The position numbers and the translations under genes were made by a program. Under the pieces are notes generated by a model that was given only the letters and a program-made list of their open reading frames with translations, was not told where the DNA came from and did not search any database. This document shows positions 28,152 through 49,700 of a DNA stretch of 53,785 nt, in pieces (within the stretch, counting starts at the first letter, position 1; each line of letters starts with the position of its first letter). Source of the stretch: Candidatus Tayloriibacteriota bacterium (GTDB lineage Bacteria; Patescibacteriota; Minisyncoccia; Phycocordibacterales; PALSA-1337); contig JANNAN010000019.1 of the NCBI GenBank assembly GCA_031384385.1, positions 1 through 53,785 on the forward strand, written 5' to 3'.

Positions 28152-28811
28152 ATGATTTATTTTTATTATGGAACTGATATAAAAAAGACTCATCTTAAAT
28201 CATATGAACTTATAAATTCTTTACTAAAAAAGAAGCCTGATGCATCATTTTTTAAAATAGATACAGAAAATTTTGATGTGATTACCTTGAAAGAATATGT
28301 CGGTAGTCAAGGATTATTTTCAGATAAATATATAGTTTTATTGGATAGACTTTGTGAAAAAAAAGATATAAAAGAAGAGTACATTGATTTATTAAAAGAA
28401 ATTTCTGGATCTGATAATATTTTCATAATTCTTGAGGGTAAAATAGACAAAGTTACAGCCACAAAAATTGAGAAAAAATCAGAAAAAACGATCAAATTTG
28501 ATCTTGAAGAATCTTTTAATAAAAAAAGTGATTCGAATGCATTTGAAATTGCTAATGCCTTAGGTAGAAGAAATAAAAAAGAGATATGGATATTATATCG
28601 TAAGTATATTGATTCTGGATCTGCACCAGAGGAATTGCACGGCATTTTATTTTGGAAAGCCAAAAATATGCTTCTTATAAAAGATTTCTCTTCTTGGAAA
28701 GAAGAAGAATTATTAAATTTAATAGATAAATTAATAACCATTTATCATGAAGCAAGAAGAGGGAATGGAGAGTTGGAAACAAGTCTTGAGGCCCTAATAC
28801 TTATTATTTAA
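28152..28811 (+). CDS. holA: DNA polymerase III delta subunit-like (short)
   Basis: 219 aa. The N-terminal pattern IYFYYGTD...LFSDKYIVLLD...NIFIILEGKIDK resembles HolA domain I. Shorter than typical HolA. Confidence 0.45.
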   Translation: MIYFYYGTDIKKTHLKSYELINSLLKKKPDASFFKIDTENFDVITLKEYVGSQGLFSDKYIVLLDRLCEKKDIKEEYIDLLKEISGSDNIFIILEGKIDKVTATKIEKKSEKTIKFDLEESFNKKSDSNAFEIANALGRRNKKEIWILYRKYIDSGSAPEELHGILFWKAKNMLLIKDFSSWKEEELLNLIDKLITIYHEARRGNGELETSLEALILII

Positions 28812-30365
28812 TGGTAATGAGAAACTAAAAGTACTTCCTTTCTCTAGTCCCTCTGAGTTTGCCCATATTTTACCTTTATGGCGCGAGATAATTTCTTTTG
28901 CAATAAATAATCCAATTCCCATACCCTCAGTATCTGCTTTTCTAGCTTCATGCGTTCTATAAAATTTTGAAAATATAAGATTAAATTCTTCTTTGCTTAT
29001 ACCCATGCCTGTATCATGTATAGAGAATATCATATCTTCACTATTCTTTTTAAACCCTATGGATATAATCCCATTATCCTTTGTGTAATGGATAGCATTC
29101 TCTATTAAGGTTTGAATTACAAATTTTATTCTTGCGAGATCACATTTAGTTTCTATTCCAGTCTCTATAGATTCAGTTATGTTTAATTGCTTGGCTTTGA
29201 TTTGATCAGATACAGATTCCAAAACATTTTCTACTGCCTTACTTATATCATTTTTTTCAAATTTATATTTGTATGAACTGTGCTCTGCTTCAGATGTTGT
29301 AACTAATAAGTCAGTTAATTCTATAAGTTTTTCATTTGCATTTTTTATATAACCCACCTGTGTAGACATTTCTGGAGTTAGTTGATAATTCTTTAGATTT
29401 TCTATTGCCCACTTTATTCCAGTTAAAGGTGTGCGGAATTTATGAGTAACTGTAGTAAGAAATTCATATTTTAATAAATCATTTTCTCTTAATGTTTTCC
29501 AAACGACAGTACTGATTGTTACAAAAAAAACAGCAGATATTACAGCCGTAACCCATGTTGGATAATTTGGTAAAAAACTTGTTATTATTCCATTAGAAAA
29601 ATTTAATAGGATGATTATTCCACCAACTATGATAATGCCAATTGCATAAAAGAATGCTTGTTTCGCGACGATCTTCACATCGAATAATTCATATTTGATA
29701 GCTCCATATAAGAACGGGGGTATGAAGATAAGCGGAAACAGCATACCAATTAGTGGATCTATTGGAATATTATAAATAAGAAAATTTGGTACGAAGCCCG
29801 GTATAAAAGCAACTATCAGCGTTATGATTAAGTATTTGTATTGATTCTTCTTAATTTCAGAGCTAGCTTCTTTGCGAGTTTTAAATAATAAGTATATAGA
29901 ATAGGGCACACAAACTCCATACAAAAAGGGAACTCTTATCCAATTTAGTATCCCCGGATTATAATAATTTGGAAAATACATTTTAGGGACTGATGACAGT
30001 AAGAAAATATCTGGAAATATTGAAAAGAAAATTACAATGATGATTGCTGATAAATGTATTAATATTATTGTCCATTTATTTTCTTTTTCCTTACCTATCA
30101 TATAAATGACTGAATGGACCAAGAAACTACCAATAAAAAATAAAGATAGATTGAACATTAGAAAAAATTTGGATAAATCTGGATTAGTAACATTTACTCC
30201 AATTACATGAGATATTGTGAATATTACTACGAACAATGCTGAAAATGCGAATGTAATATTTGTAATTTTATTTCTACCATTCAAAAAAGAAAATAAAGAA
30301 ACTCCTAATAATAATAAAGTCGACATCACTGATGTAATATTATGAGCGATTAGGTGGATATTCAT
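28794..30365 (-). CDS. sensor histidine kinase with a ~8-TM N-terminal domain (no response regulator in the window)
   Basis: H-box HKFRTPLTGI, N/G boxes HDTGMGIS and GMGIGLFIAKEI. Its start overlaps the stop of the upstream cohesin-like gene (CAATGAAT, ATGA overlap at 30362-30365). Confidence 0.85.
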   Translation of the reverse strand: MNIHLIAHNITSVMSTLLLLGVSLFSFLNGRNKITNITFAFSALFVVIFTISHVIGVNVTNPDLSKFFLMFNLSLFFIGSFLVHSVIYMIGKEKENKWTIILIHLSAIIIVIFFSIFPDIFLLSSVPKMYFPNYYNPGILNWIRVPFLYGVCVPYSIYLLFKTRKEASSEIKKNQYKYLIITLIVAFIPGFVPNFLIYNIPIDPLIGMLFPLIFIPPFLYGAIKYELFDVKIVAKQAFFYAIGIIIVGGIIILLNFSNGIITSFLPNYPTWVTAVISAVFFVTISTVVWKTLRENDLLKYEFLTTVTHKFRTPLTGIKWAIENLKNYQLTPEMSTQVGYIKNANEKLIELTDLLVTTSEAEHSSYKYKFEKNDISKAVENVLESVSDQIKAKQLNITESIETGIETKCDLARIKFVIQTLIENAIHYTKDNGIISIGFKKNSEDMIFSIHDTGMGISKEEFNLIFSKFYRTHEARKADTEGMGIGLFIAKEIISRHKGKIWANSEGLEKGSTFSFSLPLNNKY

Positions 30366-32077
30366 TGTGATATATCTTTTATTTCTTTGGTAATTGTGTT
30401 CTCTGATTCATCAAGATTTTTTTCAAAATGTTCTAGAAAAGCAATTTCTTCAGTAGTTAGTTTGCGTTTCGACTTCATAGATTTTAGTTTTGCTATATGT
30501 TCATCAATATCTTTTCTTAAAATGCTAAAAGATTTCCTTAGAATATATTCAGCTTCTCTAGCTTCGCGACGAAGAAGACGTAAAACTCTGAATAGGCGAT
30601 ACCAAAGAAATATACCCAGACCAATAATGCCACCTAGGGCAAGAATTGCGAATATTATTGCAGACATATATTTAAGTGCAAGATCTGTGATTTTGGTAAG
30701 GAATGGTGAATTAACGATAAGATTTAGGGGTTGAGTTTCATTGCTACGCGCACCTCTTGTGTCGATTACTCTTGCAGTGAATGTATACACTCCTGGCGGT
30801 AGAAGTTTTGTTGTGACTATAACAAAATCTCCAAATTCATTACTTTTTGTATATTCTTCAGATAGAATTTTGTTGTTTTGTTTAATAGAAATAGTAATAT
30901 CAGAATTTTTATAAGTTGTACCAAGAATCTTTATGATATCTCCAGATTCAATCTCTTCTTTATAATATTTTATTGTTGGAGCTTCAATATTTTCAATGGT
31001 GAAATCGGCAGAAGCACTTACAGTATTTCCCGCCTCATCAATAGCAGTAGCAATGACAGTGTGTGTACCTGGAAATTGTGAGGTGAGTGTATATGGGCTT
31101 GAAACTTCTGATGGCTCTACGCGTATAGGACTACTTCCTTCAACTTTAATATCGTAGTGACTGATACCAGAATCATCATCTGTTGTGCTAAAAATAAGTA
31201 CTGGCCTTGGTTCAAAACCCTTTGCTCCATGAGGAAAAGTAATAGAGAAGGGGTTCGGTGGCTTATTATCAATATTTACTCTATAACGAGCAATGTCACT
31301 CCAACCTTCGGCATTGCGTATCTGTAAAGAGAAATAATATGTTCCATTTGGAAGTGTATCAACTTTCTTCTTTGAAATGGGTGATGTATATAAAACAGTT
31401 GGAGTGATATTGGCAGATTTACCAATAAAAGTTCTCACCTCGATTGCATTTGGTGGAAGAGTCCATGAAAACTCAGGTGTATTGTTTGAATACCATTTGG
31501 CTTGATCTGAATGCGTTATTGATGAAATTGTCGGAGTATTTTTATTAGAATTATTTGCAGGTACAATAACTTTTTCGTTTATACCAGAATTTACAACAAA
31601 ACTAGCTGTACCCATACCATCAAGAATATCCGCACCAGATCCATCATTGGCGAGTATAGATCCAGAAGAAAAGCTTATATTTGCAAGACCAGCAGACTTT
31701 GCTCTAAAAACAACTGTAATGACATTCCCTTGAATACCAGTATAGCCGGGATTAAGAATTACTCCTTCAAAGTTCACCTTACCTTGAGTATTTGAAAAAG
31801 AAGGCTCTTGCACCCAAAGATTCACAATTGAATTGGATTTTGAAAGACTTATTACTTCAATTTTATCTTGTGGAAAAGATACAATTCCAGAAGCAGCATT
31901 TGCTGATTTATTAGGGCTAGAGACATATACATTTACCGAGAAAATATCTCCAATATTCCTTGAGACAGTTGATGGAGAAAATCCTAGAGTTGCAGCACTA
32001 GAGATATAAGGAAGACAGAAAAAAATAATAAATATAAAAACAATTTTAATTAATTTTGTGAATTCTTTTTTCTGCAT
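30362..32077 (-). CDS. cohesin-like domain surface protein with Ig-like repeats, a C-terminal TM anchor and a cytoplasmic coiled-coil tail
   Basis: Signal peptide IVFIFIIFFCLPYISSA. Cohesin-like module: IGDIFSVNVYVSS...ASGIVSFPQDKIEVISL...GKVNFEGVILNPGYTGIQGNVITVVFRAKSAGLANISF. TM segment AIIFAILALGGIIGLGIFLWY. I placed the start at MQKKEF (32077) rather than the ORF-track 32131. Confidence 0.6.
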   Translation of the reverse strand: MQKKEFTKLIKIVFIFIIFFCLPYISSAATLGFSPSTVSRNIGDIFSVNVYVSSPNKSANAASGIVSFPQDKIEVISLSKSNSIVNLWVQEPSFSNTQGKVNFEGVILNPGYTGIQGNVITVVFRAKSAGLANISFSSGSILANDGSGADILDGMGTASFVVNSGINEKVIVPANNSNKNTPTISSITHSDQAKWYSNNTPEFSWTLPPNAIEVRTFIGKSANITPTVLYTSPISKKKVDTLPNGTYYFSLQIRNAEGWSDIARYRVNIDNKPPNPFSITFPHGAKGFEPRPVLIFSTTDDDSGISHYDIKVEGSSPIRVEPSEVSSPYTLTSQFPGTHTVIATAIDEAGNTVSASADFTIENIEAPTIKYYKEEIESGDIIKILGTTYKNSDITISIKQNNKILSEEYTKSNEFGDFVIVTTKLLPPGVYTFTARVIDTRGARSNETQPLNLIVNSPFLTKITDLALKYMSAIIFAILALGGIIGLGIFLWYRLFRVLRLLRREAREAEYILRKSFSILRKDIDEHIAKLKSMKSKRKLTTEEIAFLEHFEKNLDESENTITKEIKDISQ

Positions 32078-32928
32078 AATTTTTTTATTAAGAATAACAA
32101 GATGAAGAGTACACTTATAATAATAAACCAATATTGTATATTCTCATAATGGCTTGGTGGATACTTTGGTTCAATTTCAATAATTCGTTCATTACCAAGC
32201 TTGTCGATTGCCTTTAGAAATATTTTCTTGCTAAGAGTTTGGTCTTTTAACAAATATGGACTTTCTACAACAGTAAACCAATCTAATATTCCTTCACGAA
32301 CTTTGTAGTTGGCTATGCCAGATATTTTATCTTGTGTGGCGAAAACAAGAAAATATTTTCCATCAAATATATTTGGATCTTTCTCAATAGTAGGGAAGAA
32401 GTTCTCTGGTAAGTCTTTATCAGTTAATATTTCTTCCGAGGCATTACTAATTCCTGATTTTATATAGACAGCTGTATTATTTAGTTTAAGTTCTACGGGG
32501 CTACCTAATCCATCATTTTTTAAAGCTTTCAAATCTTCTAATACAATAGAAGTTAAGCCTGTACCTTTTGCCTCAAAAACTACAGAAAAAATACTCTTAT
32601 TTGCCCCATTAAATCCTCCAGGGGTAATGCCAGAAAACAAAACAGAACCTGATTTTTCAATATGTGGTTTTTCAATCCAAAAGTTTATAACAGAATTACC
32701 ATCACGGATCTCCTTAATGGATAGCTTATCTGTTGGAAATACTAATCTACCACTGATAGCATTCAATGATTCTTCGGAATGAACTATGATATCTAGTGAA
32801 AATTGCTCATCAGAATTGACCTCTGATTTATGTGTATCAAGACGAATCTCAGCAGCAAAAACTGATTCAGCAATAAAAAATAAAGATATTAAAAGAAAAA
32901 CAGATGTTATTTTTGTATAAATATTCAT
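32050..32928 (-). CDS. cohesin-like domain surface protein with a C-terminal TM anchor
   Basis: Signal peptide ...IAESVFA. Cohesin-like module: EQFSLDIIVHSEESLNAISGRLVFPTDKLSIKEI...SGSVLFSGITPGGFNGANKSIFSVVFEAKGTGLTSIVL. C-terminal TM segment YWFIIISVLFILLFLI. Confidence 0.6.
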   Translation of the reverse strand: MNIYTKITSVFLLISLFFIAESVFAAEIRLDTHKSEVNSDEQFSLDIIVHSEESLNAISGRLVFPTDKLSIKEIRDGNSVINFWIEKPHIEKSGSVLFSGITPGGFNGANKSIFSVVFEAKGTGLTSIVLEDLKALKNDGLGSPVELKLNNTAVYIKSGISNASEEILTDKDLPENFFPTIEKDPNIFDGKYFLVFATQDKISGIANYKVREGILDWFTVVESPYLLKDQTLSKKIFLKAIDKLGNERIIEIEPKYPPSHYENIQYWFIIISVLFILLFLIKKLCRKKNSQN

Positions 32929-32932
32929 GATA

Positions 32933-33946
32933 TTATCCTGTCCAATTAAATGCCATTATTGAAAAATCTATAAGGTTTACTTTGCCATCTCCATTTAAAT
33001 CAATCAATGTTGGAGGATTGGCTCTTTTATACCAATACGCAATAATAGAAAAATCTATAAGGTTTACTTTGCCATCCTTGTTTAAGTCTGATTTTGAGAT
33101 AATCTTTTCTAGTGATTGTAAGAGTACATTCTTTGTACCCACAATAAAAGCTGCAACCTTACTAAAAGAGCTGATCTCACCATCTAGATATACTTTTGAT
33201 TTGGTGCTATGTTGTCCCATTTCAAGTACGGAGGTATCAAAGTTCAGTAAGTATACTCCATTTGCATCAGATTTTTTTTTTACAAAAAATTCTTCCTCGG
33301 AATTAATATTAACTGTTATTTCGGATAAAGGTGCGCTTTGTCCAAAAATAGCAATATTATCTCCACGACGCACTTCACTTTTATCAACAGCAATAGATGG
33401 TGCTATAAAGATATTACCGATTTTTGTGGTTACTCCAGCAGTAACACTTATTGGAAAAGTAAAGAGTGATGATCTGACACCTTTATCATCTTCTGAATAG
33501 ACACTAAAAATATAATTTCCACCAGAAAGACTTGATATTGTCATTTGAAAATTTGCACCTGCATCAGCAATCGTTGTTGCTGCAACCTGAGCATCTTTTA
33601 GAAGGGTAACTGTACTTCTTGGGTATGCTTTACCTGTAAAAACAACATTGGTGTTTGGAATAGTAGGAGTATTATTTCCTCCGCCTCCACCACCAGAATT
33701 AGAGCTACACATCGAAGTATTTAATGTACATGATGCTGTGCAAGAAAGAGTTCCTCCGGTAAAACCTTGTAAAGTACAAGATCCACCACCAAGATTTGAG
33801 CCGTCACATTGCTCACCGACAGAAATTATACCGTCTCCACATCCAGGTACTATTGCCGATATTTCAACAGTAATAGCTAAAACACTAAATGGAAAGAAAA
33901 ACAGAGAGAGTAAAAAAATGATTGATAGTGGATAAAATGATCTCAT
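32933..33946 (-). CDS. secreted dockerin-containing protein with an N-terminal Cys-rich repeat and an Ig-like middle region
   Basis: The C-terminus holds two canonical dockerin calcium-binding repeats, DLNKDGKVNLIDFSII and DLNGDGKVNLIDFSIM. The N-terminus CGDGIISVGEQCDGSNLGGGSC...SCTASC resembles the CGDG...EQCD cysteine-rich repeat. Confidence 0.75.
   Translation of the reverse strand: MRSFYPLSIIFLLSLFFFPFSVLAITVEISAIVPGCGDGIISVGEQCDGSNLGGGSCTLQGFTGGTLSCTASCTLNTSMCSSNSGGGGGGNNTPTIPNTNVVFTGKAYPRSTVTLLKDAQVAATTIADAGANFQMTISSLSGGNYIFSVYSEDDKGVRSSLFTFPISVTAGVTTKIGNIFIAPSIAVDKSEVRRGDNIAIFGQSAPLSEITVNINSEEEFFVKKKSDANGVYLLNFDTSVLEMGQHSTKSKVYLDGEISSFSKVAAFIVGTKNVLLQSLEKIISKSDLNKDGKVNLIDFSIIAYWYKRANPPTLIDLNGDGKVNLIDFSIMAFNWTG
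32961..33076 (-). repeat. 29-nt perfect direct repeat encoding the two dockerin segments
   Basis: gaaaaatctataaggtttactttgccatc occurs at 32961-32989 and again at 33048-33076 (87-nt period, 29 codons). Confidence 0.9.
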
Positions 33947-34930
33947 TCATTTTTGTTGTTGTGCTTGAGCAATAATCCAACGATTATATTTTTTGAGTGC
34001 TATTTTTCCTAAAAATCCAATGATAGAAGCTATGATAAGAACAATTATGAGTAGTTGCCAAGGGATAACAAAGAAGTTGTAGCTAGCCCTTGCTATCTGA
34101 TTTGTTGCTCCCCATGTAATATTTAGTTTTGCTGTATACCAACCGAAATGAAAATTATTCCATTGTTGTCCAACCATCTCAAAAAATCCAGGAATAGCAA
34201 TCTCTTCTTTGGAATTAGTTGGTTTTTGTATTTCTTGCCCCCATAGTACTTCAAATTTTCTGGCACTTCCTGGCAATACACTACCCTCATTTTTATTTGC
34301 TAAAAGTTTGGCTGAGGTATACTGTACTGTATTTTTAATTTTGATTTCACCCAAAGGCACAACACGATCTCCACCGGTATTATTTAGACGATAGGTAAAT
34401 GCTATTGGCAGGGTAGTAAAAAATCTCTGTTTTTCTTTGGTGTTAAACTCTAGTAGACCACCTCCTTCTTCTACATCACCAGAAACACGCAAAAGTATCA
34501 AAACACCTATTTTTCCACCGACAGATACTTGTCCTCCACCTTGTATGCCGGGCTCTTGGCTACCAAAAAATATTGCAGCAAAATGACCCCCTGGCTCAGC
34601 ATTTTTGGGAATAGTAATAGAATATGGAATGATAGTACGATTACCTGATTCTAGTATAACTTTACTTTTTGAATTTATCCATGTAGCGAGACCATCTTTT
34701 GCGCCAATAAAATGAGGAGCACCAGTATCTCCACTTGGTTCAAAATTTTCAAATGAAGTATAGAAGGTTCTTGCCCCCTCCTGCTCGTTAAAAAGCTCTA
34801 TTTCACCCTCAAGTTTTGCTCCTGGATCACCAGTAATCTCAACTCTTGCTGGGGATACTGTTAAAGCAAATACCGGACTTGCTATGCTTGCAATTACTAT
34901 AACTAGAATTGTATAAAATAAATTTCGCAT
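33947..34930 (-). CDS. DUF916/DUF3324-like (CscA-like) surface protein with a C-terminal TM anchor
   Basis: Signal peptide, then LTVSPARVEITGDPGAKLEGEIELFN and ...IIPYSITIPKNAEPGGHFAAIFF (DUF916-like pattern). A second beta domain contains TYRLNNTGGDRVVPLGEIKIKN. C-terminal TM segment LLIIVLIIASIIGFLG. Its stop abuts the next start (TGAATG). Confidence 0.55.
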   Translation of the reverse strand: MRNLFYTILVIVIASIASPVFALTVSPARVEITGDPGAKLEGEIELFNEQEGARTFYTSFENFEPSGDTGAPHFIGAKDGLATWINSKSKVILESGNRTIIPYSITIPKNAEPGGHFAAIFFGSQEPGIQGGGQVSVGGKIGVLILLRVSGDVEEGGGLLEFNTKEKQRFFTTLPIAFTYRLNNTGGDRVVPLGEIKIKNTVQYTSAKLLANKNEGSVLPGSARKFEVLWGQEIQKPTNSKEEIAIPGFFEMVGQQWNNFHFGWYTAKLNITWGATNQIARASYNFFVIPWQLLIIVLIIASIIGFLGKIALKKYNRWIIAQAQQQK

Positions 34931-34971: not shown

Positions 34972-36024
34972 CTAAAAGTTAGCAGTTGTTACATATGTAA
35001 GGGTAGAAGTGTATGCTCCCGCTTCTGTGTTTGAGGCGATGTTCGCAATATATCTTGCTGAGTAAGTGGTATTTGCAGAACTACCAGAAGCCGAAGCTAC
35101 TTGACTGGGGAAGGATGCTGTATTAAGTGCAAATCCTGATGCTGCATAAGGAGCAGTTACTGTACCAGAACCTCCTGTAGCAGTCATACGCAAACCAAAT
35201 TGTTCCGTACCAATAGCAGATGCTGTGTTTGATGCACCAATCGCAGTTATAGTGAATGCACCACTAGTTAGTGTAGTTCCATTCAGTGTCATACTGTAAC
35301 CACTTCCTGCATTTGTACCAACAATAACATTGTGTGCTTCTACTTCTGATGCTGAACAAGCAGCAGTACCTTGTGCATAACAAGCTGCTGATGATGAAAG
35401 ACTTCCAAAACCGATAGTGTTATCTGAAATACTGAATGTTAGAGATTGATCAACAGTAGCCGTAACTGCTACTTGGTCATCAGTTAAAATATTCACTGTT
35501 ATGTTTCCTGTGTCTGTAAATGTACCAGAAATAGCTATTACCTTTGAACCATTAGAAGTGGTGTTGGTGATCTGTCTAACCCCAGTTGATTGGTTGGTAG
35601 CATTTGTACCAATTTTAATTCTCATTACACTACCAGCTGTAACTACGGTTGTACCGTTTGTAAGAGTTATTACTGTTGCTGAAGTACGAACCGCTCCCCA
35701 TGTAGCACCAGATGGAGAGGCTGCCAAAGTAACATTTGATGCATCATCAAGCACATCCATATCAGTAAAATCCATGGCAGCTGCTATAGAAAAATCAGAT
35801 GGCAAAGTAATAATAATAGTTTGGCCTGAGGCAACACCGGTAGGCGTTGTAAATTGGATATCATGGTTAGCTAGAGTGCTGACCTTTTGTGAAGATAGGG
35901 TATCAGAGGCAGCAGTGATCGCGGCAGCATAGGCCGTCTGTACCCCACTTGAGAGTGTAAGTAATCCTATAACAAGATAAAGACTTGTTAGAAAATGTAC
36001 TCTTGAAATAAATGTTCTGTTCAT
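34972..36024 (-). CDS. secreted beta-rich surface/fibre subunit candidate (paralog A)
   Basis: Signal peptide ...GVQTAYA; Thr/Ser/Ala/Gly-rich. Its C-terminal ~155-aa module (QSLTFSISDNTIGFGSL...GTEQFGLRM...AGAYTSTLTYVTTANF) is shared with the next gene. The module ending resembles SCPU/WxL-type subunits. Confidence 0.6.
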   Translation of the reverse strand: MNRTFISRVHFLTSLYLVIGLLTLSSGVQTAYAAAITAASDTLSSQKVSTLANHDIQFTTPTGVASGQTIIITLPSDFSIAAAMDFTDMDVLDDASNVTLAASPSGATWGAVRTSATVITLTNGTTVVTAGSVMRIKIGTNATNQSTGVRQITNTTSNGSKVIAISGTFTDTGNITVNILTDDQVAVTATVDQSLTFSISDNTIGFGSLSSSAACYAQGTAACSASEVEAHNVIVGTNAGSGYSMTLNGTTLTSGAFTITAIGASNTASAIGTEQFGLRMTATGGSGTVTAPYAASGFALNTASFPSQVASASGSSANTTYSARYIANIASNTEAGAYTSTLTYVTTANF

Positions 36025-36133
36025 AAAAATTATTTGCTTGTAAATATTAGTTTAATAAAAATTTTGTAGTAACTTAAATAGTATAGCATATTTTTTATTG
36101 TCAATGCTAGCAAAAATGTGGGTAAGTTTTATA

Positions 36134-37138
36134 TTAAAAAGTTGCTGTTACAGTATATGTTAAAACTGAAGAATAACTTCCATTTTCAGTATTAGCAGAA
36201 ATATTACTTATATAACGAACTCCAAATTGACTGGTTACTCCATCTCCAGCACCTGATGTAACCTGATCTGGAAATGTAGCAGTATCCATTGCCCAATTTG
36301 AACCATTGTATGGAGCGCTCACTGAACCTGTCCCAGAATTTACAATCGCACGCAAACCAAATTGTTCAGTTCCTGAGCTTCCTGCTACGGCTGTACCACC
36401 TATTGCTGTAACAGTATTTCCGCCAGATGTAAGTGTATTCCCATTGAGCGTCATTGTGTAACCGCTAGATGCATTGGTTGATATTGATATAGTATGAGCA
36501 TCACTTGTATCAGATGCAGAACCATTTGTATCTCCTGTGGCATATCGAGCTCCTGAAGCCACAAGTGTGCCAAAACCAATAGTATTATCTGAAATACTAA
36601 ATGTTAATGATTGACTTCCTCCAACAGCAGTGGCACATATTTTAGTAGTGTAGGCACTTCCATCTCCGACATGAGAATTTGTAGTTGCATTTAAAGAGCC
36701 AAGAGTTGTATCAAATCCAGAACAATTAGTTGCCTGATAACCAACTGATACAGAACCTCCTGATGGTACTGATATACAAGCATTGTTAGCATAATTTACT
36801 TGACTGTTTTGTTCCACATGAGCGTTACTTGTTCCAGATAATTTAAGTACCGTAGCAAATGTACCAGAGCAAGAATTACCGAGACTACTTACTCCGCTAC
36901 AACAAATAACATTATTGCTATAATTTCCATTTGCTTGACTAGGAAGTTCCGCATGAGCATTTGATGATCCGGACATGCGCAAAATCACTGTATTAGTACA
37001 AGCAGCAGCAGTTGTAATAGAGCAAGATAAAGTACCAGCATGAGAAATATGTTCAAATGATAATGCAAAGAAAAAGATGGTCAAAAATAAAACTGTAATC
37101 CTTTGTTTCTTATTAAAAAGTTGTAGTAGTTGTACCAT
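36134..37138 (-). CDS. secreted beta-rich surface/fibre subunit candidate (paralog B) with a triple Cys-containing N-terminal repeat
   Basis: Three copies of an SNAH-type motif: MSGSSNAHAELPSQANGNYSNNVICC, LSGTSNAHVEQNSQVNYANNACIS and LNATTNSHVGDGSAYTTKICAT. The C-terminal module QSLTFSISDNTIGFGTL...GTEQFGLRA...NGSYSSVLTYTVTATF is paralogous to 34972-36024. Confidence 0.6.
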   Translation of the reverse strand: MVQLLQLFNKKQRITVLFLTIFFFALSFEHISHAGTLSCSITTAAACTNTVILRMSGSSNAHAELPSQANGNYSNNVICCSGVSSLGNSCSGTFATVLKLSGTSNAHVEQNSQVNYANNACISVPSGGSVSVGYQATNCSGFDTTLGSLNATTNSHVGDGSAYTTKICATAVGGSQSLTFSISDNTIGFGTLVASGARYATGDTNGSASDTSDAHTISISTNASSGYTMTLNGNTLTSGGNTVTAIGGTAVAGSSGTEQFGLRAIVNSGTGSVSAPYNGSNWAMDTATFPDQVTSGAGDGVTSQFGVRYISNISANTENGSYSSVLTYTVTATF

Positions 37139-38030
37139 TGGTGTTTATGTTTTCACTTAGAGAGGGTAGAGCTTCAATAACATTAGCTGTCATATCAGGC
37201 AGAGAATTTGAAGAAAAACTAGAAGGTGTAGTCGTTTCAGTGATAGTTTCAGAAATCAAAACTCCATCTATTGGAGCAGTAACAATTTGTCCATCAATTA
37301 AGTCTGATTTTATAGAAGTGATAGCTGTATCTTCTTGTATAATTTCTTCTGTAACTAGTTCAATATTTTGTGGTATTGGTTTAATATCACTAAATCCAGA
37401 CATTGCCATTTCTCCTGTACTATCTGAACCAAAAACCATATGTGCAAAATCAAAAACCGTACTCTCTGGATTGTCATATGTATATTCTTTGTAAATTCCA
37501 TCATCAATTTTTATTTTGAAAGTTCCTGCCTCTCCTATTTTTTGATCAAAATTGATTGTGAAAAGATACCATTTATCAGCATCATAATCTGAAAGTAAAG
37601 AAATTTGTTGGTCTGCTTCTTCTAATATAATACCTTTTGATTCAGTAAATTTAATACTAAATAACATCTGACTACTAGCATCTGATGTTAGAGCATTAAA
37701 ATAAAACAATCCTTTTTTATTATGACGCATTCTTAATTGAAAAATTCCGCTATTTAATGGTGTGATATCGTGAACAGCTGTGATAAAACCATCATGAATC
37801 ATTTCTACATATTTTGTATCTCCATCTGGATATGTCGTAGAAACATTGGCAATCCCATTAGAATTTCCTGAATGATTTGTTACCACCCAACCACCTTGCC
37901 CATTAAGATTGCCAAGACTGTATGATTCAAAAGTATCTTCAAATGCCCAATTACTATTTGCAGATACAAAATTTACAGTAAAAAACATCAAAACTAGAGG
38001 AAATAAAAATTTTGTAAAAAGTTTCTTCAT
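37113..38030 (-). CDS. secreted LamG/concanavalin-like lectin-fold candidate
   Basis: Signal peptide ...FTVNFVSA. The beta-sandwich-like sequence WAFEDTFESYSLGNLNGQGGW...KWYLFTINFDQ...FKIKIDDG resembles LamG-type domains. Thr-rich C-terminus. Overlaps the next gene by 26 nt. Confidence 0.45.
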   Translation of the reverse strand: MKKLFTKFLFPLVLMFFTVNFVSANSNWAFEDTFESYSLGNLNGQGGWVVTNHSGNSNGIANVSTTYPDGDTKYVEMIHDGFITAVHDITPLNSGIFQLRMRHNKKGLFYFNALTSDASSQMLFSIKFTESKGIILEEADQQISLLSDYDADKWYLFTINFDQKIGEAGTFKIKIDDGIYKEYTYDNPESTVFDFAHMVFGSDSTGEMAMSGFSDIKPIPQNIELVTEEIIQEDTAITSIKSDLIDGQIVTAPIDGVLISETITETTTPSSFSSNSLPDMTANVIEALPSLSENINTNGTTTTTF

Positions 38031-38064
38031 AACTAATATAAACTATGCAATATTTTATACTTTT

Positions 38065-39591
38065 TTACCAAGAGTAGATGAAAATAGCACCTCTACCACC
38101 CGCGCCACCAGCACCACCTAATCCTGGGTTCATTCCCACTCCACCTCCACCTCCTCCACCACCATGTATGCCACCAGCACCACCAGCACCACCAGCGGTT
38201 GAGGCAGTAACAGTCGTGCCTCCTCCTCCACCACCCGCGCCACCTTTTGTAGAATTACCCGCTGCACCAGCAGTTCCAGCGGTTGGAGAAGCTCCATCAG
38301 TACCTACCGCTCCTCCTCCAGCCGCAATGTAAGAAGTAACTCTACCTCCTGCTGAACCAGCAACTATAGCTGGGGTAACATTGTGATGCCCACCTGAACC
38401 CCCACCTCCACCGCCAAAAATAGAACCACCTCCCACAACACTTGCTGGAGCTGAAGTACTTCCACCACCACCTGCACCACCATATTCAGCATTGTGTGTA
38501 GTAACAACAGTGATTGGGCCCTGAGAACCAGTTCCTCCTGTAACACCAGTAACATTACTTGTTCCAGGAAGTCCTCCAGCTCCTACTGCTGTACTACCTG
38601 TACCACCGGCACCTCCATTACCCCCACCTCCACCTCCACCACTTGCAACAGCCGAAATAGCTCCCCCTCGACCACCACCACCTCCAAATGCTGAAAGTAT
38701 AACTGTTGTACCAAATGTAGAATTGCCACCGATTCCTCCATCACCACCTGCTGCACCAGCGGCTCCAGCTGCACCAGCAGTTCCACCAACACCCACATTC
38801 AAACTTTCAGTTGATCCTAAATCTGAGGCTCTGTAGAGTCTACTTACGAATACACCACCTCCACCACCTGCACCACCTTTTGCTACGACAGCTGTAGCAA
38901 GTGATGCACCTGCTCCACCTCCACCACCACCACCCCACATAACAACCTCTACGAAGTCTGGAATAAAAGTAGTCGGTTTTGTCCATGTTCCAGCACCTGT
39001 AGATGTGAACGCCTGTACATCGGATAAAGGAGAGCTCGACCATGTAGTACCGTTAGAAGTAAGCACATTACCTGAAGTTCCTGGAGCAACAAATGTAGGA
39101 TTACTCGTTCCATTTCCGAGAATAACATTGTTCGCTGTAAGTGTGGCAAGACCAGTACCTCCTTGTGCAACCGTTACAGCAGAGTCTGAAGTAAGAACAG
39201 TGGCATTGGCATTTGGAAATGTGAAAGTTTTAGCAGTTGAAGCTGGTCCAGCAGCAGTGAAGAATGCCATACCTGTACCTCCGTTTGCACTTGGTAAAAT
39301 ACCAGTTATACCATTTGTTAAATCGATCTGTGCCCATGCGGGATTATTTGATGAACCTGTATTGGAAAGATATCTTGTGGCGGAAGTATTTTTTGCCAAA
39401 GCTGTAAGTGTGTCTGCTGCTGATCCATAAAAAATATCACCCTGTGCTGCTCCACCACCAATAGCACTAAAATCATGTCCGGGATTTGGAGTTACAGCGA
39501 ATGCGATACTGATTATGGAAAATGAAATTAGAAGAAGCCAAAAAATACTTAGAGCTTTATTTGTATTTGAAACGAGAGATAACTTTTTCAT
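38065..39591 (-). CDS. secreted tail-fibre-like protein with a glycine-rich C-terminal domain
   Basis: Signal peptide ...IISIAFA. Repeats ITGILPSANGGTG and VTVAQGGTGLATLTANNVILGNG are the GGTG motifs seen in phage tail-fibre-like proteins. FTSTGAGTWTKPTTFIPDFVEVVMWGGGGGGGAG starts a ~280-aa Gly/Ala-rich domain. Confidence 0.65.
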   Translation of the reverse strand: MKKLSLVSNTNKALSIFWLLLISFSIISIAFAVTPNPGHDFSAIGGGAAQGDIFYGSAADTLTALAKNTSATRYLSNTGSSNNPAWAQIDLTNGITGILPSANGGTGMAFFTAAGPASTAKTFTFPNANATVLTSDSAVTVAQGGTGLATLTANNVILGNGTSNPTFVAPGTSGNVLTSNGTTWSSSPLSDVQAFTSTGAGTWTKPTTFIPDFVEVVMWGGGGGGGAGASLATAVVAKGGAGGGGGVFVSRLYRASDLGSTESLNVGVGGTAGAAGAAGAAGGDGGIGGNSTFGTTVILSAFGGGGGRGGAISAVASGGGGGGGNGGAGGTGSTAVGAGGLPGTSNVTGVTGGTGSQGPITVVTTHNAEYGGAGGGGSTSAPASVVGGGSIFGGGGGGSGGHHNVTPAIVAGSAGGRVTSYIAAGGGAVGTDGASPTAGTAGAAGNSTKGGAGGGGGGTTVTASTAGGAGGAGGIHGGGGGGGGVGMNPGLGGAGGAGGRGAIFIYSW

Positions 39592-48194: not shown

Positions 48195-49133
48195 ATGTTA
48201 ACAAAAAAATTTTTTAAATTATTTCCTCCACCAAAATTTCTGAACACACCTTATGCTGGGCTAGATATTTCTAGTGACGCTATTTATTGTATTGAATACG
48301 CAGAAAATATAAAAGGGTATTCGATTCATCGATACGGTAAAAGAATTTTAGCCCCTGGAATAATAGAATCTGGACATATAAAAAATGAACCAGAATTGAT
48401 TAAGGCTATTACTTCACTTGCTCAAGAATTAAAAATTAAAACTGTTAGAGCATCCTTACCAGAAGAAAGAATGTATCTTTTTAAAACAGAAGTGCCTACT
48501 AGATATGAAAATGAAATCCGTCAAAATATAGAATTTAAACTTGAGGAAAATGTTCCTCTTTCTCCAGAAGATGCACTTTTCTTTTTTGATTTTATTCCAG
48601 AATCAATTACTAATCATAAACCCAATGTAAGTGTGTCTGTTGCGCCTAAAGATTTGGTTGAAAATTATTTAAGAATAATAAAATCTTCAGGACTAGATGT
48701 TATTGCTTTTGAAATTCAACCCAAAGCTATTGCTCACGCTGTTGTTCCAGATTTTTCTACGGAAACACAAATATTGGTTCATACCATGAATAAAAAAGTT
48801 GGTATTTATATTGTTTCTGGAGGGGTTGTTTGTTTCACTTCTACTATTGTTATGGATAAGGGTTCAGAAATTACGCTTCTTCAAAAAGAATTGAGTAGAG
48901 TTTATTCATACTGGATAGATTATGGTGGTGGTAAGCCTATCAATAGAATTATTTTGTCTGGATGTGATGCTTCTAGAATAGTTAAATCTTCACATATTTC
49001 TCCAGCACCTAATATTCCAGTGGAACTTGCCCAAGTATGGAGAAATGCTTTTTCAAGTGATCAATATATTCCAAAATTAAATTTTGAAGAATCATTAGAG
49101 TATGCTGTAGCTGCAGGATTAGCATTACCATAA
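48195..49133 (+). CDS. pilM: type IV pilus assembly protein PilM
   Basis: 312 aa, actin-like. GLDISSDAIYCIEY...ASLPEERMYLFKTEVP fits the PilM pattern. Followed by PilN/O-like bitopic proteins. Confidence 0.65.
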   Translation: MLTKKFFKLFPPPKFLNTPYAGLDISSDAIYCIEYAENIKGYSIHRYGKRILAPGIIESGHIKNEPELIKAITSLAQELKIKTVRASLPEERMYLFKTEVPTRYENEIRQNIEFKLEENVPLSPEDALFFFDFIPESITNHKPNVSVSVAPKDLVENYLRIIKSSGLDVIAFEIQPKAIAHAVVPDFSTETQILVHTMNKKVGIYIVSGGVVCFTSTIVMDKGSEITLLQKELSRVYSYWIDYGGGKPINRIILSGCDASRIVKSSHISPAPNIPVELAQVWRNAFSSDQYIPKLNFEESLEYAVAAGLALP

Positions 49134-49138
49134 TTTTT

Positions 49139-49696
49139 ATGTATTTTATTAGTCATTACACATTATTGCCAGAAAAAGAAATTAAATCTCTGAAAATAGA
49201 GTATCGAATTCGTATTTTAGTCGTTCTCCTTTTTTTCATTTCTTGTGCGATGATTATCGGTATCTGTTCTTTATTGCCATCATATATACTTTCATATGCT
49301 CAGGAGAAAAATTCAGTTCAAAAGGTTCAATCAATAAATGAATCTTTAGATAAGGACCATGATATTTTTTCAGCAGATTTACTTGGTAGTTATAAGATAA
49401 TAAAAAAAATTAAACTAGAACAAAATAATATTATTTTTTCAAACTATCTTAAGAAGATTGATTCATATAAGAATGATTTTATTGTATTTAATTCATTTCA
49501 ATTATCAAAATCTCAAGAAACATCTTCTTCTACTTCTGAAATGATTTTGCAGGGCAAAGCGAAAACTCGTAATTCTATTTTGCAATTCAAAAAAGTCTTA
49601 GAGAGTAATTCTGAAATTCTAAAAGTAGAATTACCCTTATCTGATCTTACAAAGAATAAGGATATAGATTTTGCTTTTCGAATAAAATTTAAATAA
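49139..49696 (+). CDS. pilN: PilN-like bitopic membrane protein
   Basis: 185 aa. An N-terminal LLPEKEIKS motif is followed by a single TM segment (ILVVLLFFISCAMIIGICSLL). Lies directly after pilM. Confidence 0.45.
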   Translation: MYFISHYTLLPEKEIKSLKIEYRIRILVVLLFFISCAMIIGICSLLPSYILSYAQEKNSVQKVQSINESLDKDHDIFSADLLGSYKIIKKIKLEQNNIIFSNYLKKIDSYKNDFIVFNSFQLSKSQETSSSTSEMILQGKAKTRNSILQFKKVLESNSEILKVELPLSDLTKNKDIDFAFRIKFK

Positions 49697-49700
49697 AAAC

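What the first reader, a model, noticed from the sequence alone, without database searches (positions are those of the whole stretch)
34972..37138. Two tandem paralogs sharing a ~155-aa C-terminal subunit module that ends in an aromatic residue, with different N-terminal heads (one a triple Cys-motif repeat)
Both proteins contain the near-identical block QSLTFSISDNTIGFG(S/T)L, later GTEQFGLR(M/A). They end ...AGAYTSTLTYVTTANF and ...NGSYSSVLTYTVTATF.

The alternating-residue terminal strand with a final Phe, and the FG-after-first-strand pattern, resemble SCPU/Csu-type pilin subunits and the second WxL motif region of WxL proteins, though no Trp is present.

Paralog B has an N-terminal region with three copies of a (S/T)(S/T)N(A/S)H-containing, Cys-bracketed motif. 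Paralog A instead has a Thr/Ala-rich beta domain.

A shared assembly module with variable heads is what I would expect of polymerising or anchor-docking surface subunits (inference).
Basis: partly seen in the sequence, partly recalled or inferred. Interest (0 to 1): 0.62.

Follow-up and report, generated by a model that had tools for sequence, protein, structure and literature searches.

The report
Pam-type pilus subunits of a CPR bacterium
The two neighbouring genes most likely encode the shaft subunit and a probable tip adhesin of a recently described kind of thin surface fibre (Pam pilus) of ultrasmall CPR bacteria, and the shared C-terminal block is the module that lets subunits clip together.

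Summary
Proteins A (34972-36024, minus strand) and B (36134-37138, minus strand) share a 158/159-aa C-terminal module (56% identity, E 1e-51) ending in Phe.

The module belongs to a family described in 2026. Both proteins pass NCBIfam NF058581 "CPR Pam pilus pilin C-terminal domain" (78 and 67 bits, cut-off 55). Cryo-EM of Ca. Mycosynbacter amalyticus showed that Pam pilins polymerise by donor-strand exchange.

The next gene (33947-34930) is predicted to fold like PapD/CfaA pilus chaperones and like enterococcal WxLIP, and carries a C-terminal membrane helix.

In the 50 related genomes fetched, the usual order is [variable head + module] - [A-type] - [chaperone] - [dockerin protein] - [two membrane-anchored cohesin-like proteins].

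Only A-type and head-less relatives carry a conserved alternating strand (DDQVAVTATVD) just before the module. B and the 320-3243-aa variable-head relatives lack it. The same core opens the mature dockerin protein.

I infer that A is the polymerising shaft, B an acceptor-only tip adhesin, and the dockerin protein a terminator or adaptor.

I rate this a new variant of a known kind.

The parts
34972..36024 (-). Paralogue A, 350 aa: candidate major (shaft) Pam-type pilin. Signal peptide res 1-33, beta-rich head res 34-181, donor-type strand res 182-192, C-terminal pilin module res 193-350.
   Evidence: ORF. NF058581 78.1 bits against cut-off 55. More than 1200 homologues, the 120 listed at 55-85% identity over 89-100% of the query apart from three fragments. 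Sits immediately upstream of the chaperone in about 45 of 50 related loci.
35449..35481 (-). Candidate donor (linker) strand of A, DDQVAVTATVD (res 182-192): hydrophobic residues at alternate positions (V185, V187, A189, V191).
   Evidence: Conserved in A-type proteins and absent from B and variable-head proteins. Kept in head-less minimal pilins P0474 and P0480, directly after their signal peptide. Its role as the donor is inferred.
34975..35448 (-). C-terminal pilin module of A (res 193-350), from QSLTFSISDNTIGFG to TYVTTANF.
   Evidence: 56% identical to B's module. All 26 of 26 family modules hit NF058581, best E 2.1e-43. An exhaustive profile search finds 1416 clusters, and the module is C-terminal in all of the best 150.
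36134..37138 (-). Paralogue B, 334 aa: candidate acceptor-only tip subunit or adhesin. Signal peptide res 1-34, Cys-rich head res 35-175, C-terminal pilin module res 176-334.
   Evidence: ORF. NF058581 66.7 bits against cut-off 55. No donor motif before the module. Occupies the 'gene 1' slot, which in other species holds unrelated heads of up to 2095 aa.
36614..37036 (-). Head of B: three N-(A/S)-H motifs, seven invariant Cys plus one nearly invariant (C47). Probable ligand-binding domain of unknown fold.
   Evidence: Invariant columns. Repeats 1 and 2 homologous at probability 96%, repeat 3 weak. The AlphaFold2 model is below pLDDT 50 here, so the fold is unresolved. No Pfam or NCBIfam hit.
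36137..36613 (-). C-terminal pilin module of B (res 176-334).
   Evidence: Modelled at pLDDT about 75-85. The weak Foldseek hit list is dominated by chaperone-usher pilins: FimA, PapA, PapH, Caf1, CfaB, CsuA/B.
33947..34930 (-). 327-aa membrane-anchored chaperone candidate (PamC/D-like and WxLIP-like): signal peptide, two beta-sandwich domains, C-terminal transmembrane helix (res about 291-313).
   Evidence: AlphaFold2 model. Foldseek: CfaA 6e-6, WxLIP 9i1y/9i25 6e-6 to 9e-6, plus CsuC, FaeE, PapD, EcpB. Six of 27 orthologues give weak hits to Pfam WxLIP_PGBD. More than 1100 homologues.
32933..33946 (-). 337-aa secreted protein: mature N-terminus ITVEISAIVPG (donor-like strand, 33845-33874), Cys-rich repeat, two Ig-like domains, C-terminal dockerin (about 32936-33112). 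Candidate terminator or adaptor.
   Evidence: Dockerin_1 39.4 bits against cut-off 22.9. Present directly downstream of the chaperone in 50 of 50 loci. The N-terminal strand matches the A donor motif in 24 of 51 orthologues against 15 of 1520 other ORFs, Fisher p 6e-29. Its role is inferred.
32050..32928 (-). 292-aa protein: cohesin-like domain, second beta domain, C-terminal transmembrane helix. Candidate membrane anchor for the dockerin protein.
   Evidence: Found in 39 of 50 loci at about +2 kb. The family profile hits only cohesin modules in the PDB (5aoz 0.009, 5m2o, 5g5d). Nine of 27 orthologues hit Pfam Cohesin, best E 7.7e-6.
30362..32131 (-). 589-aa protein: cohesin-like N-terminal domain, Ig-like domains (Big_13), transmembrane helix, cytoplasmic tail. 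Second candidate anchor.
   Evidence: Big_13 30.6 bits. Found in 39 of 50 loci, mostly about +2.8 kb from the chaperone. N-terminal region resembles the cohesin-like region of the 292-aa protein. The cohesin call was not separately tested.
37113..39591 (-). Two upstream genes co-oriented with B: a 305-aa secreted protein (37113-38030, overlapping B's start by 26 nt) and a 508-aa glycine-rich 'tail-fibre-like' protein (38065-39591). Accessory genes linked to the B-type head only.
   Evidence: Gly_rich_2 29 bits against cut-off 24.3. The glycine-rich protein occurs in 10 of 50 loci, 9 of which were seen to carry a B-type head (L029 is the exception). The 305-aa protein occurs in 3 of 50.

Best explanation
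A and B are two subunits of a Pam-type pilus. This is a thin surface fibre of CPR/Patescibacteria built by donor-strand exchange without an outer-membrane usher.

The shared 158-aa C-terminal module is an incomplete Ig-like pilin domain with an open groove. After Sec export, the adjacent membrane-anchored PapD/WxLIP-like protein (33947-34930) caps that groove.

Subunit A also carries a donor strand, DDQVAVTATVD, between its head and its module. This strand would displace the chaperone from the groove of the previously assembled subunit, so A polymerises head-to-tail into the shaft.

B has the acceptor module but no such strand. It can therefore only sit at the distal end and present its Cys-rich, triple-motif head as the binding (adhesin) domain.

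The downstream dockerin protein starts with the same donor-type strand. It probably plugs the last A subunit and ties the fibre to two membrane-anchored cohesin-like proteins.

Shown here: the homology of the module, its family membership, the chaperone-like fold, the conserved gene order, and the presence or absence of the strand motif. Inferred: polymerisation itself, which strand is the donor, B's tip position, and the dockerin-cohesin tether.
For: Module and family
- Module homology is 56% over 159 aa, E 1e-51.
- NF058581 CPR_Pam_pilin_C is hit above the curated cut-off by A and B and by 26 of 26 family modules, best E 2.1e-43.
- The family's founders, PamA and PamB, are cryo-EM-resolved donor-strand-exchange filaments with membrane-anchored PapD-like chaperones.
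- B's module gives weak Foldseek matches, almost all to chaperone-usher pilins. Five of 26 modules give weak hits to Pfam Fimbrial.

Chaperone
- The 327-aa neighbour matches CfaA, CsuC, FaeE, PapD, EcpB and WxLIP at E 6e-6 to 1e-3. It ends in a transmembrane helix.

Gene order
- [variable head + module] - [A-type] - [chaperone] holds in about 45 of 50 species loci.
- The dockerin protein follows in 50 of 50 loci and the 292-aa cohesin-like protein in 39 of 50.

Donor motif
- The motif lies directly before the module in A-type proteins (PSSM +7 to +36) and in the head-less P0474, P0480 and P0406. It is absent (negative scores) from all B-type and 183-3243-aa variable-head representatives.
- The same core, V-x-[VI]-[ST]-A-T-V, sits at the mature N-terminus of the dockerin protein (odds ratio 89, p 6e-29).

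Other
- Tip and shaft modules from the same genome are more alike than modules from different genomes.
- All three core proteins have more than 1100 homologues, and nearly all that carry a source name come from Patescibacteria MAGs.
Against: - No filament has been seen for this lineage, and no multimer model could be run.
- The B model is poor (mean pLDDT 58.9, head below 50). No Foldseek hit for it reaches E 1e-3.
- The chaperone model is of moderate quality (pLDDT 65) and its second domain is weak.
- The curated NCBIfam domain begins about 18 residues after QSLTFSIS. That is compatible with this universally conserved strand, rather than DDQVAVTATVD, being the exchanged linker. The preprint says the donated linker is among the most conserved regions. 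In that case B could also polymerise.
- B keeps a degenerate look-alike strand (KICATA) with an invariant Cys before its module.
- No PamT, PamE or PamR equivalogue was found in the window, and the ATP synthase neighbourhood described for pam operons is absent.
- The cohesin assignment rests on weak profile hits.
Confidence: 0.75

Rival explanations
1. All module-bearing proteins, including B, are interchangeable pilins. The universally conserved QSLTFSISDNTIGFG strand would be the exchanged linker. A and B would then form blocks within one filament, as PamA and PamB do in M. amalyticus. The A-specific DDQVAVTATVD would simply be the last strand of A's head.
For: - QSLTFSIS... is the most conserved stretch between the paralogues (71% against 51% for the middle of the module).
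- It lies just upstream of where the curated Pam C-terminal domain model begins.
- The preprint reports the donated linker as one of the most conserved regions, and reports PamA/PamB block co-polymers.
Against: - Head-less full-length pilins P0474 and P0480 keep a V-x-[VI]-[ST]-A-T-V strand between the signal peptide and QSLTF, so that strand is not part of a head domain.
- The same core opens the mature dockerin protein.
- Proteins with heads of 1000-3000 aa are unlikely shaft units.
- From memory (not tested here): in chaperone-usher and Csu pilins the donor strand directly precedes the first strand of the fold and its FG motif.
Confidence: 0.2
2. This is not a fibre but a WxL-like display system. 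A and B would each be held singly and non-covalently on the cell surface. Their C-terminal module would dock by strand complementation onto the membrane-anchored WxLIP-like protein. The cohesin and dockerin proteins would form a separate surface scaffold.
For: - The partner protein matches the WxLIP structures 9i1y and 9i25 as well as it matches pilus chaperones, and over more columns (306).
- Six of 27 orthologues give weak hits to Pfam WxLIP_PGBD.
- The commonest WxL cluster is one WxLIP plus two WxL proteins, with the docking domain always C-terminal and WxLIP completing the WxL sandwich (PMC10599100 and PMC9772566).
Against: - The module passes the Pam pilin model, and Pam pilins are proven filaments.
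- No Pfam WxL hit and no dual WxL motif.
- A dedicated alternating strand in A-type and head-less relatives has no role in a pure docking model.
Confidence: 0.12
3. The similarity is incidental, arising from low-complexity Thr/Ala/Ser/Gly-rich beta sequence, or the module is an enzyme or a disordered tail.
For: The composition is strongly biased towards T, A, S and G. Pfam gives no hit.
Against: - E 1e-51 with compositional adjustment.
- 15 columns are invariant and 15 nearly invariant across 26 diverse modules.
- The curated family hit is above its cut-off.
- The module is modelled as an ordered beta domain at pLDDT 75-85.
- No enzymatic family matches.
Confidence: 0.01

Closest known systems
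Pam pilus of Candidatus Mycosynbacter amalyticus (PamA/PamB pilins, PamC/PamD chaperones, PamT, PamE, PamR). bioRxiv 10.64898/2026.03.03.709456; NCBIfam NF058581 and NF058579.
   Same: - The C-terminal pilin domain is homologous, above the curated cut-off.
- Both use Sec signal peptides.
[quoted passage not shown]
- Both have an adjacent PapD-like chaperone with a C-terminal membrane helix and no usher.
- Both are CPR-restricted.
- A glycine-rich 'tail-fibre-like' gene lies nearby.
   Different: - This system is found in Paceibacteria/Parcubacteria-type genomes, not the Saccharimonadia or Microgenomatia highlighted in the preprint.
- It has one chaperone rather than two.
- No PamT, PamE or PamR equivalogue was found. 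PamT scores 21-41 bits against a cut-off of 240.
- The tip is apparently a fused head-plus-module protein with heads from 140 to about 3000 aa. B's head is a Cys-rich triple-motif domain, not the nine-strand sandwich.
- The putative terminator carries a dockerin and is followed by cohesin-like membrane proteins. The preprint mentions neither dockerin nor cohesin.
- There is no ATP synthase neighbourhood.
Chaperone-usher pili of Gram-negative bacteria (Fim, Pap, CFA/I, Caf1, archaic Csu/SCPU)
   Same: - The same operating logic is proposed: an incomplete Ig-like pilin domain, a donor strand with alternating hydrophobic residues directly before the domain, a two-domain tip adhesin lacking the donor strand, and a PapD-fold chaperone.
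- Foldseek matches the chaperone model to CfaA, CsuC, FaeE, PapD and EcpB and, weakly, the pilin model to FimA, PapA, Caf1, CfaB and CsuA/B.
- The module ends in a G-x-Y...aromatic strand like Csu/SCPU pilins (the Csu/SCPU pattern is from memory).
   Different: - No Pfam Fimbrial or SCPU membership: 5 of 26 sub-threshold Fimbrial hits and no SCPU hit.
- No usher and no outer membrane.
- The chaperone is membrane-anchored.
- The shaft subunit has an extra N-terminal head, with the donor strand internal (a linker) rather than N-terminal.
WxL surface-protein clusters of Firmicutes (small WxL, large WxL, WxLIP = DUF916-DUF3324-TM). PMC9772566, PMC10599100; PDB 9i1y, 9i25.
   Same: - The cluster grammar matches: two or more secreted proteins sharing a C-terminal docking domain of about 160-180 aa, one of them with variable adhesin-like heads, plus one two-Ig-domain protein with a C-terminal membrane helix.
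- That helix-anchored protein is predicted to insert a strand to complete the partner's sandwich.
- The 327-aa protein matches WxLIP structures at E 6e-6. Six of 27 orthologues touch Pfam WxLIP_PGBD.
   Different: - No Pfam WxL hit and no dual WxL motif. A has none. B has a single W282 (NWAMD; the B-orthologue consensus reads NWALD).
- Different phylum.
- WxL proteins are thought to dock on peptidoglycan and WxLIP rather than polymerise.
- Homology between the Pam module and the WxL domain could not be tested here.
Cohesin-dockerin surface anchoring (cellulosome-type scaffoldins)
   Same: A canonical duplicated Ca-binding dockerin closes the 337-aa protein (Dockerin_1 above cut-off). The two following membrane proteins have cohesin-like N-terminal domains.
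   Different: There are no enzymes or carbohydrate-active modules. The genes are strictly syntenic with a pilus operon (50 of 50 loci). The cohesin signal is weak, and the binding is not shown.

Membership tests
Pam pilus pilins (CPR; NCBIfam NF058581) | C-terminal domain matches the curated CPR_Pam_pilin_C model above its cut-off (55 bits) | tested here: met
   A scores 78.1 bits and B 66.7 bits. All 26 of 26 family modules match, best E 2.1e-43.
Pam pilus pilins (CPR; NCBIfam NF058581) | N-terminal Sec signal peptide | tested here: met
   Read directly from the sequence. A: hydrophobic core then AYA|A at res 31-34. B: hydrophobic core then SHA|G at res 32-35. The same pattern is conserved in orthologues. 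No dedicated predictor was run.
Pam pilus pilins (CPR; NCBIfam NF058581) | [quoted passage not shown] | tested here: inconclusive
   A's head (about 148 aa) has the right size and alternating beta-type sequence, but it was not modelled. B's head is a Cys-rich triple-motif domain modelled below pLDDT 50. It looks different from the published head.
Pam pilus pilins (CPR; NCBIfam NF058581) | Single linker or donor strand between head and C-terminal domain | tested here: inconclusive
   A has a conserved alternating strand, DDQVAVTATVD, directly before the module. B does not. Which strand is actually exchanged could not be determined without multimer models.
Pam pilus pilins (CPR; NCBIfam NF058581) | Operon-encoded PapD-like chaperone with a C-terminal transmembrane helix | tested here: met
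   The adjacent 327-aa protein matches CfaA, CsuC, FaeE, PapD and EcpB by Foldseek at E 6e-6 to 1e-3. Its model ends in a helix at res 291-326. The model is of moderate quality (pLDDT 65).
Pam pilus pilins (CPR; NCBIfam NF058581) | Assembly into helical filaments by donor-strand exchange | not testable with these tools
   This needs multimer prediction, EM or biochemistry.
Pam pilus pilins (CPR; NCBIfam NF058581) | Restriction to CPR/Patescibacteria | tested here: met
   Nearly all homologues that carry a source name come from Patescibacteria/Parcubacteria-type MAGs. A few records labelled Bacillota, Syntrophomonadaceae or Gammaproteobacteria sit on contigs with the same operon, so they are probably mislabelled.
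PamT (NF058579 equivalog) | Score at or above 240 bits; single-domain tip pilin | tested here: not met
   A scores 33-41 bits and B 20.6 bits. Both have N-terminal heads.
Chaperone-usher pilins (Pfam Fimbrial PF00419, SCPU PF05229) | Profile match above the gathering score | tested here: not met
   A and B give no hit at E<=1. Five of 26 modules hit Fimbrial at best E 0.006, and none hits SCPU.
Chaperone-usher pilins (Pfam Fimbrial PF00419, SCPU PF05229) | Incomplete Ig-like pilin fold | tested here: inconclusive
   The B model matches FimA, PapA, PapH, Caf1, CfaB and CsuA/B at E 0.03-0.5, with TM-scores of 0.36-0.49 when normalised to the target. None reaches E 1e-3.
Chaperone-usher pilins (Pfam Fimbrial PF00419, SCPU PF05229) | Outer-membrane usher in the operon | tested here: not met
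   None of the eight operon proteins matches an usher family. None of the ORFs scored in the 50 fetched loci fills such a role.
WxL proteins (Pfam PF13731) | WxL domain profile match and two conserved WxL motifs in the C-terminal domain | tested here: not met
   No Pfam WxL hit for A, B or 26 modules at E<=1. A has no Trp in the module. B has one (W282, NWAMD).
WxL proteins (Pfam PF13731) | Cluster partner WxLIP (DUF916-DUF3324 plus a transmembrane helix) | tested here: inconclusive
   Foldseek matches WxLIP 9i1y and 9i25 at E 6e-6 to 2.5e-5. Six of 27 orthologues hit WxLIP_PGBD, best E 5.6e-4, below threshold.
   No such family appears at E<=1 for A, B or the 26 modules, and none appears among the Foldseek hits.

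The most novel reading that the evidence does not exclude
The locus would be the core of a very widespread Paceibacteria surface-fibre system, with at least 1416 protein clusters at 50% identity.

In this reading a Pam-type donor-strand-exchange shaft carries interchangeable tip adhesins of 140 to about 3000 aa, which act as host-specificity determinants. The fibre is tethered to the cell by a dockerin-cohesin bridge rather than by a transmembrane terminator.

Its membrane-anchored chaperone would be homologous to WxLIP of Firmicutes. CPR Pam pili and WxL clusters would then be two branches of one ancient monoderm 'chaperone without usher' strand-complementation machinery.
Probability: 0.3. 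Interest if true: 0.8.

Novelty: new variant of a known kind. Interest (0 to 1): 0.55.

Why it matters
Almost nothing is known about how uncultivated Paceibacteria/Parcubacteria attach to hosts. These bacteria make up a large share of CPR diversity.

This locus points to a conserved, probably abundant fibre. Its shaft pilin (A) is highly conserved, while its first gene is swapped between species for unrelated heads. That is the pattern expected of host-recognition adhesins.

The result extends the Pam pilus, described in 2026 from a single cultivated Saccharimonadia parasite, to another major CPR class. It gives concrete candidates for host-range determinants, B's Cys-rich head among them. It also suggests two testable ideas missing from the founding paper. 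One is a dockerin-cohesin tether. The other is kinship with the WxL/WxLIP systems of Gram-positive gut bacteria.

Tried and rejected
- Pfam on A and B gave nothing.
- PDB sequence searches gave nothing useful. This covers a single-sequence search with A and profile searches with the A family and the chaperone family. Pam pilus structures are therefore either absent from this PDB copy or too distant.
- AlphaFold2 on B, with a 26-sequence alignment, left the head unresolved. Foldseek on that model gave only weak hits, so the fold of B's head remains unknown.
I used the chaperone alignment instead.
- I could not obtain the M. amalyticus Pam sequences, so I made no direct alignment to PamA, PamB, PamC, PamD or PamR and could not map their linker residues.
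- I could not obtain WxL domain sequences, so homology between the Pam module and the WxL domain is untested.
- The ATP synthase neighbourhood reported for pam operons is absent here. Genes at 43-52 kb are Mur ligase, RuvA, RuvX, PilM and others.
- The chaperone loop QVSVGG does not score as a donor motif (-7.3).
- No RNA runs hold this sequence. It occurs only in freshwater-sediment metagenome DNA, so there is no expression evidence.
- The promoter and terminator scan was at background level.
- I rejected chance or low-complexity similarity, an enzymatic role and a disordered tail.


Full report
**1. The observation**

On the minus strand, ORF A (34972-36024, 350 aa) and ORF B (36134-37138, 334 aa) lie 109 nt apart.

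BLASTP aligns A193-350 with B176-334 at 56% identity (89/159, one gap, E 1e-51).

All quoted strings are present. Both proteins end in Phe, and an aromatic C-terminus is kept in all 54 aligned orthologues.

B's head (res 35-175) has three N-(A/S)-H motifs and seven invariant Cys, plus a nearly invariant C47, across 26 orthologues. Profile-profile comparison supports homology of repeats 1 and 2 (probability 96%, E 2.6e-9). Repeat 3 is weak (probability 27-34%).

One detail is wrong. B's module does contain a Trp: W282 in NWAMD, where the B-orthologue consensus reads NWALD.

**2. What the shared module is**

Pfam finds nothing in A or B.

NCBIfam release 20 does. NF058581 "CPR_Pam_pilin_C, Pam pilus system pilin subunit" scores 78.1 bits for A and 66.7 bits for B, against a curated cut-off of 55. 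All 26 diverse modules tested match it, best E 2.1e-43.

The family comes from a 2026 preprint (bioRxiv 10.64898/2026.03.03.709456). Cryo-EM of filaments from the CPR parasite Ca. Mycosynbacter amalyticus identified PamA and PamB.
- The Ig-like domain accepts the linker strand of the neighbouring subunit (donor-strand exchange).
- The operon also encodes PapD-like chaperones with a C-terminal membrane helix (PamC, PamD) and a single-domain tip pilin (PamT).
- It further encodes a membrane-anchored terminator with an N-terminal strand (PamR).

An AlphaFold2 model of B gives the module pLDDT about 75-85 but leaves the head below 50. Foldseek against the PDB finds no hit at E<=1e-3. The weak list is nevertheless dominated by chaperone-usher pilins: FimA, PapA, PapH, Caf1, CfaB, CsuA/B and CupE. 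Five of 26 modules give sub-threshold hits to Pfam Fimbrial. None hits SCPU, WxL, TasA or Ena.

**3. The neighbour is a chaperone-like membrane protein**

The next gene downstream (33947-34930, 327 aa) has a signal peptide, two beta-rich regions and a C-terminal helix at res 291-326 (pLDDT 65).

Foldseek matches it to pilus chaperones CfaA (6e-6), CsuC, FaeE, PapD and EcpB. It matches the enterococcal WxL-interacting protein WxLIP equally well (9i1y and 9i25, 6e-6 to 2.5e-5, up to 312 aligned columns).

Six of 27 orthologues weakly hit Pfam WxLIP_PGBD (ex-DUF916), best E 5.6e-4. This is the only family hit by more than one member.

WxLIP is itself a two-Ig-domain protein with a C-terminal membrane helix. 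It is predicted to insert a strand that completes the sandwich of the C-terminal WxL domain (PMC10599100). The Pam preprint never mentions WxL or DUF916.

**4. Family-wide anatomy**

A, B and the chaperone each have more than 1100 homologues. All are unnamed or called "hypothetical". Nearly all that carry a source name come from Parcubacteria/Paceibacteria-type MAGs such as Taylor-, Kaiser-, Nomura-, Staskawicz- and Harrisonbacteria.

The window itself is found in a freshwater-sediment metagenome, with no RNA data.

An exhaustive HMMER search with the module profile finds 1416 clusters (50% identity) at E<=1e-3 and 252 at E<=1e-30. In all of the best 150, the module is the extreme C-terminus of a protein of 183-3243 aa.

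I scored HMMs for the module, both heads and the chaperone in 50 species-level loci fetched with the chaperone profile. The order is almost invariably [variable protein of 320-2095 aa ending in the module] - [A-type pilin of about 350 aa] - [chaperone].

The B-type head fills the first slot in about 10 loci. Other species have unrelated heads there.

Downstream synteny is just as strict.
- The 337-aa dockerin protein follows in 50 of 50 loci.
- The 292-aa protein follows in 39 of 50.
- The 589-aa protein is found in 39 of 50 loci, mostly about 2.8 kb downstream of the chaperone start.

The glycine-rich 508-aa protein occurs in 10 loci, 9 of which were seen to carry a B-type head. The 305-aa protein occurs in 3 loci.

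**5. Two classes of module-bearing proteins**

Directly before the module, A-type proteins carry a conserved strand. It reads D-D-Q-V-(A/S)-(V/I)-(S/T)-A-T-V-x, which in the window is DDQVAVTATVD (res 182-192). Hydrophobic residues sit at alternate positions. B and all other variable-head proteins have unrelated sequence there.

I built a PSSM of this 11-mer and applied it to 147 diverse representatives. It separates them cleanly.
- A-type proteins score +7 to +36.
- Every B-type and every long-headed protein scores negative.

Two full-length head-less relatives are informative. P0474 and P0480 consist of signal peptide, then this strand (VTQDVNISATVA; IVSVAATVD), then the module. The strand is therefore not part of a head domain. 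It occupies the position of the N-terminal extension of classical pilins.

QSLTFSISDNTIGFG is present in every module-bearing protein. It is more likely the first strand of the fold. This assignment is an inference. The rival view, that QSLTFSIS is the exchanged linker, keeps about 20%.

I then scanned 1571 other ORFs from the loci. The strand motif is found at the mature N-terminus of the dockerin protein (consensus A|ITV(E/D)(I/V)(T/S)ATVPGCGDG) in 24 of 51 orthologues. It is found in only 15 of 1520 other ORFs, several of which are divergent A-types (odds ratio 89, p 6e-29).

Tip and shaft modules from the same genome are more alike than modules from different genomes. The genome's own partner ranks in the top 3 of 35 in 12 of 36 loci. 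This fits co-adaptation to one donor strand and one chaperone, or gene conversion.

**6. The downstream genes**

The 337-aa protein has a canonical duplicated dockerin (Dockerin_1 39.4 bits against cut-off 22.9) and Ig-like domains.

The 292-aa family profile hits only cohesin modules in the PDB (5aoz 0.009, 5m2o, 5g5d). Nine of 27 orthologues hit Pfam Cohesin, best E 7.7e-6.

Both the 292-aa and the 589-aa proteins end in a membrane helix.

The preprint mentions neither dockerin nor cohesin.

**7. Proposed mechanism**

*Shown here:*
- the module's homology and its Pam-family membership
- the chaperone-like fold with a membrane anchor
- the six-gene synteny
- the donor-motif dichotomy

*Inferred:*
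- After Sec export, the chaperone caps the open groove of each module.
- B, which can accept a strand but not donate one, starts the fibre and presents its Cys-rich head.
- A subunits add at the base, each inserting DDQVAVTATVD into the previous module.
- The dockerin protein inserts its N-terminal strand into the last A subunit.
- The dockerin protein then ties the fibre to the cohesin-like membrane proteins.

This would be a split version of PamR's "strand plus membrane helix".

**8. Comparison and novelty**

The system works like chaperone-usher pili, but it fails their membership tests: no profile match and no usher.

It resembles WxL clusters in overall grammar and in the partner protein, but the module is not a WxL domain by the available tests.

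By the curated test it is a member of the Pam pilin family.

It differs from the described Pam operon in several ways.
- lineage (Paceibacteria-type rather than Saccharimonadia or Microgenomatia)
- a single chaperone
- fused, hypervariable tip heads in place of PamT
- B's unusual head
- the dockerin-cohesin genes in place of PamR
- no ATP synthase neighbourhood

I rate it a new variant of a known kind.

**9. Limits**

- I could run no multimer prediction.
- The monomer models are of moderate to poor quality.
- I could not retrieve M. amalyticus Pam sequences or WxL sequences for direct comparison.
- There are no expression data.
- The cohesin evidence is weak.

Noticed in passing
window 48195-50240 (+): There is a PilM_2 hit (E 4e-13), followed by two small ORFs that look like type IV pilus assembly genes. 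If so, this organism encodes both a type IV pilus and the Pam-type system.
   Followed up: no
window 38065-39591 (-): A 508-aa glycine-rich protein (Pfam Gly_rich_2, 29 bits) causes a local GC spike to 0.45. It co-occurs almost only with B-type-head loci (10 of 50 loci, 9 with a detected B-type head). The Pam preprint notes a 'tail fibre-like protein' at the centre of pam neighbourhoods.
   Followed up: partly
window 37113-38030 (-): A 305-aa secreted protein overlaps B's start codon region by 26 nt, which suggests translational coupling. It has a weak lectin/CBM-like hit (Sialidase-like_CBM, E 0.028) and ends in TTTTF. It is present in only 3 of 50 related loci.
   Followed up: partly
window 36025-36133 (minus strand, B-A intergenic): The spacer contains a perfect TTGACA and a TGcTATACT extended -10-like element, but they are only 13 nt apart. 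The consensus scan did not call it. It could be an internal promoter that boosts expression of the shaft pilin.
   Followed up: no
window B residue 282 (about 36293-36295); orthologues in alignment A1: B's module has Trp in NWAMD, where the B-orthologue consensus reads NWALD, a literal W-x-L tripeptide. A-type modules have F or Y at that position.
   Followed up: partly
proteins P0474 and P0480: These are full-length head-less minimal pilins: signal peptide, then the donor-type strand, then the module. They have the same layout as classical FimA/PapA-type pilins.
   Followed up: yes
P0204, P0202, P0227 (alignment A1); loci L001-L050: Some B-head proteins carry an A-like module (for example P0204). 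Same-genome tip and shaft modules are more similar than cross-genome pairs. This suggests recombination, gene conversion or co-adaptation of the module.
   Followed up: partly
L007:10976-11935 and L032:7749-9936: L007 has a second, partial chaperone paralogue directly after the first. L032 has two tandem A-type pilins.
   Followed up: no
window chaperone residues about 130-151 (about 34478-34543): The highly conserved loop QGGGQVSVGGKIGVLILLRVSG is disordered in the model (pLDDT below 50 at res 130-139) and is followed by a long strand with alternating hydrophobic residues. It is a candidate groove-filling hairpin, like the ordering hairpin described for WxLIP.
   Followed up: partly
loci L002, L010, L021, L033, L038, L040, L041 and protein P0261: These records are labelled Bacillota, Syntrophomonadaceae or Gammaproteobacteria, yet they carry the same CPR-type operon. 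The MAG or contig taxonomy labels are probably wrong.
   Followed up: no
window 28794-30365 (-): A histidine kinase gene overlaps the end of the 589-aa gene by 4 nt. It is not syntenic in related loci (2 of 50).
   Followed up: partly
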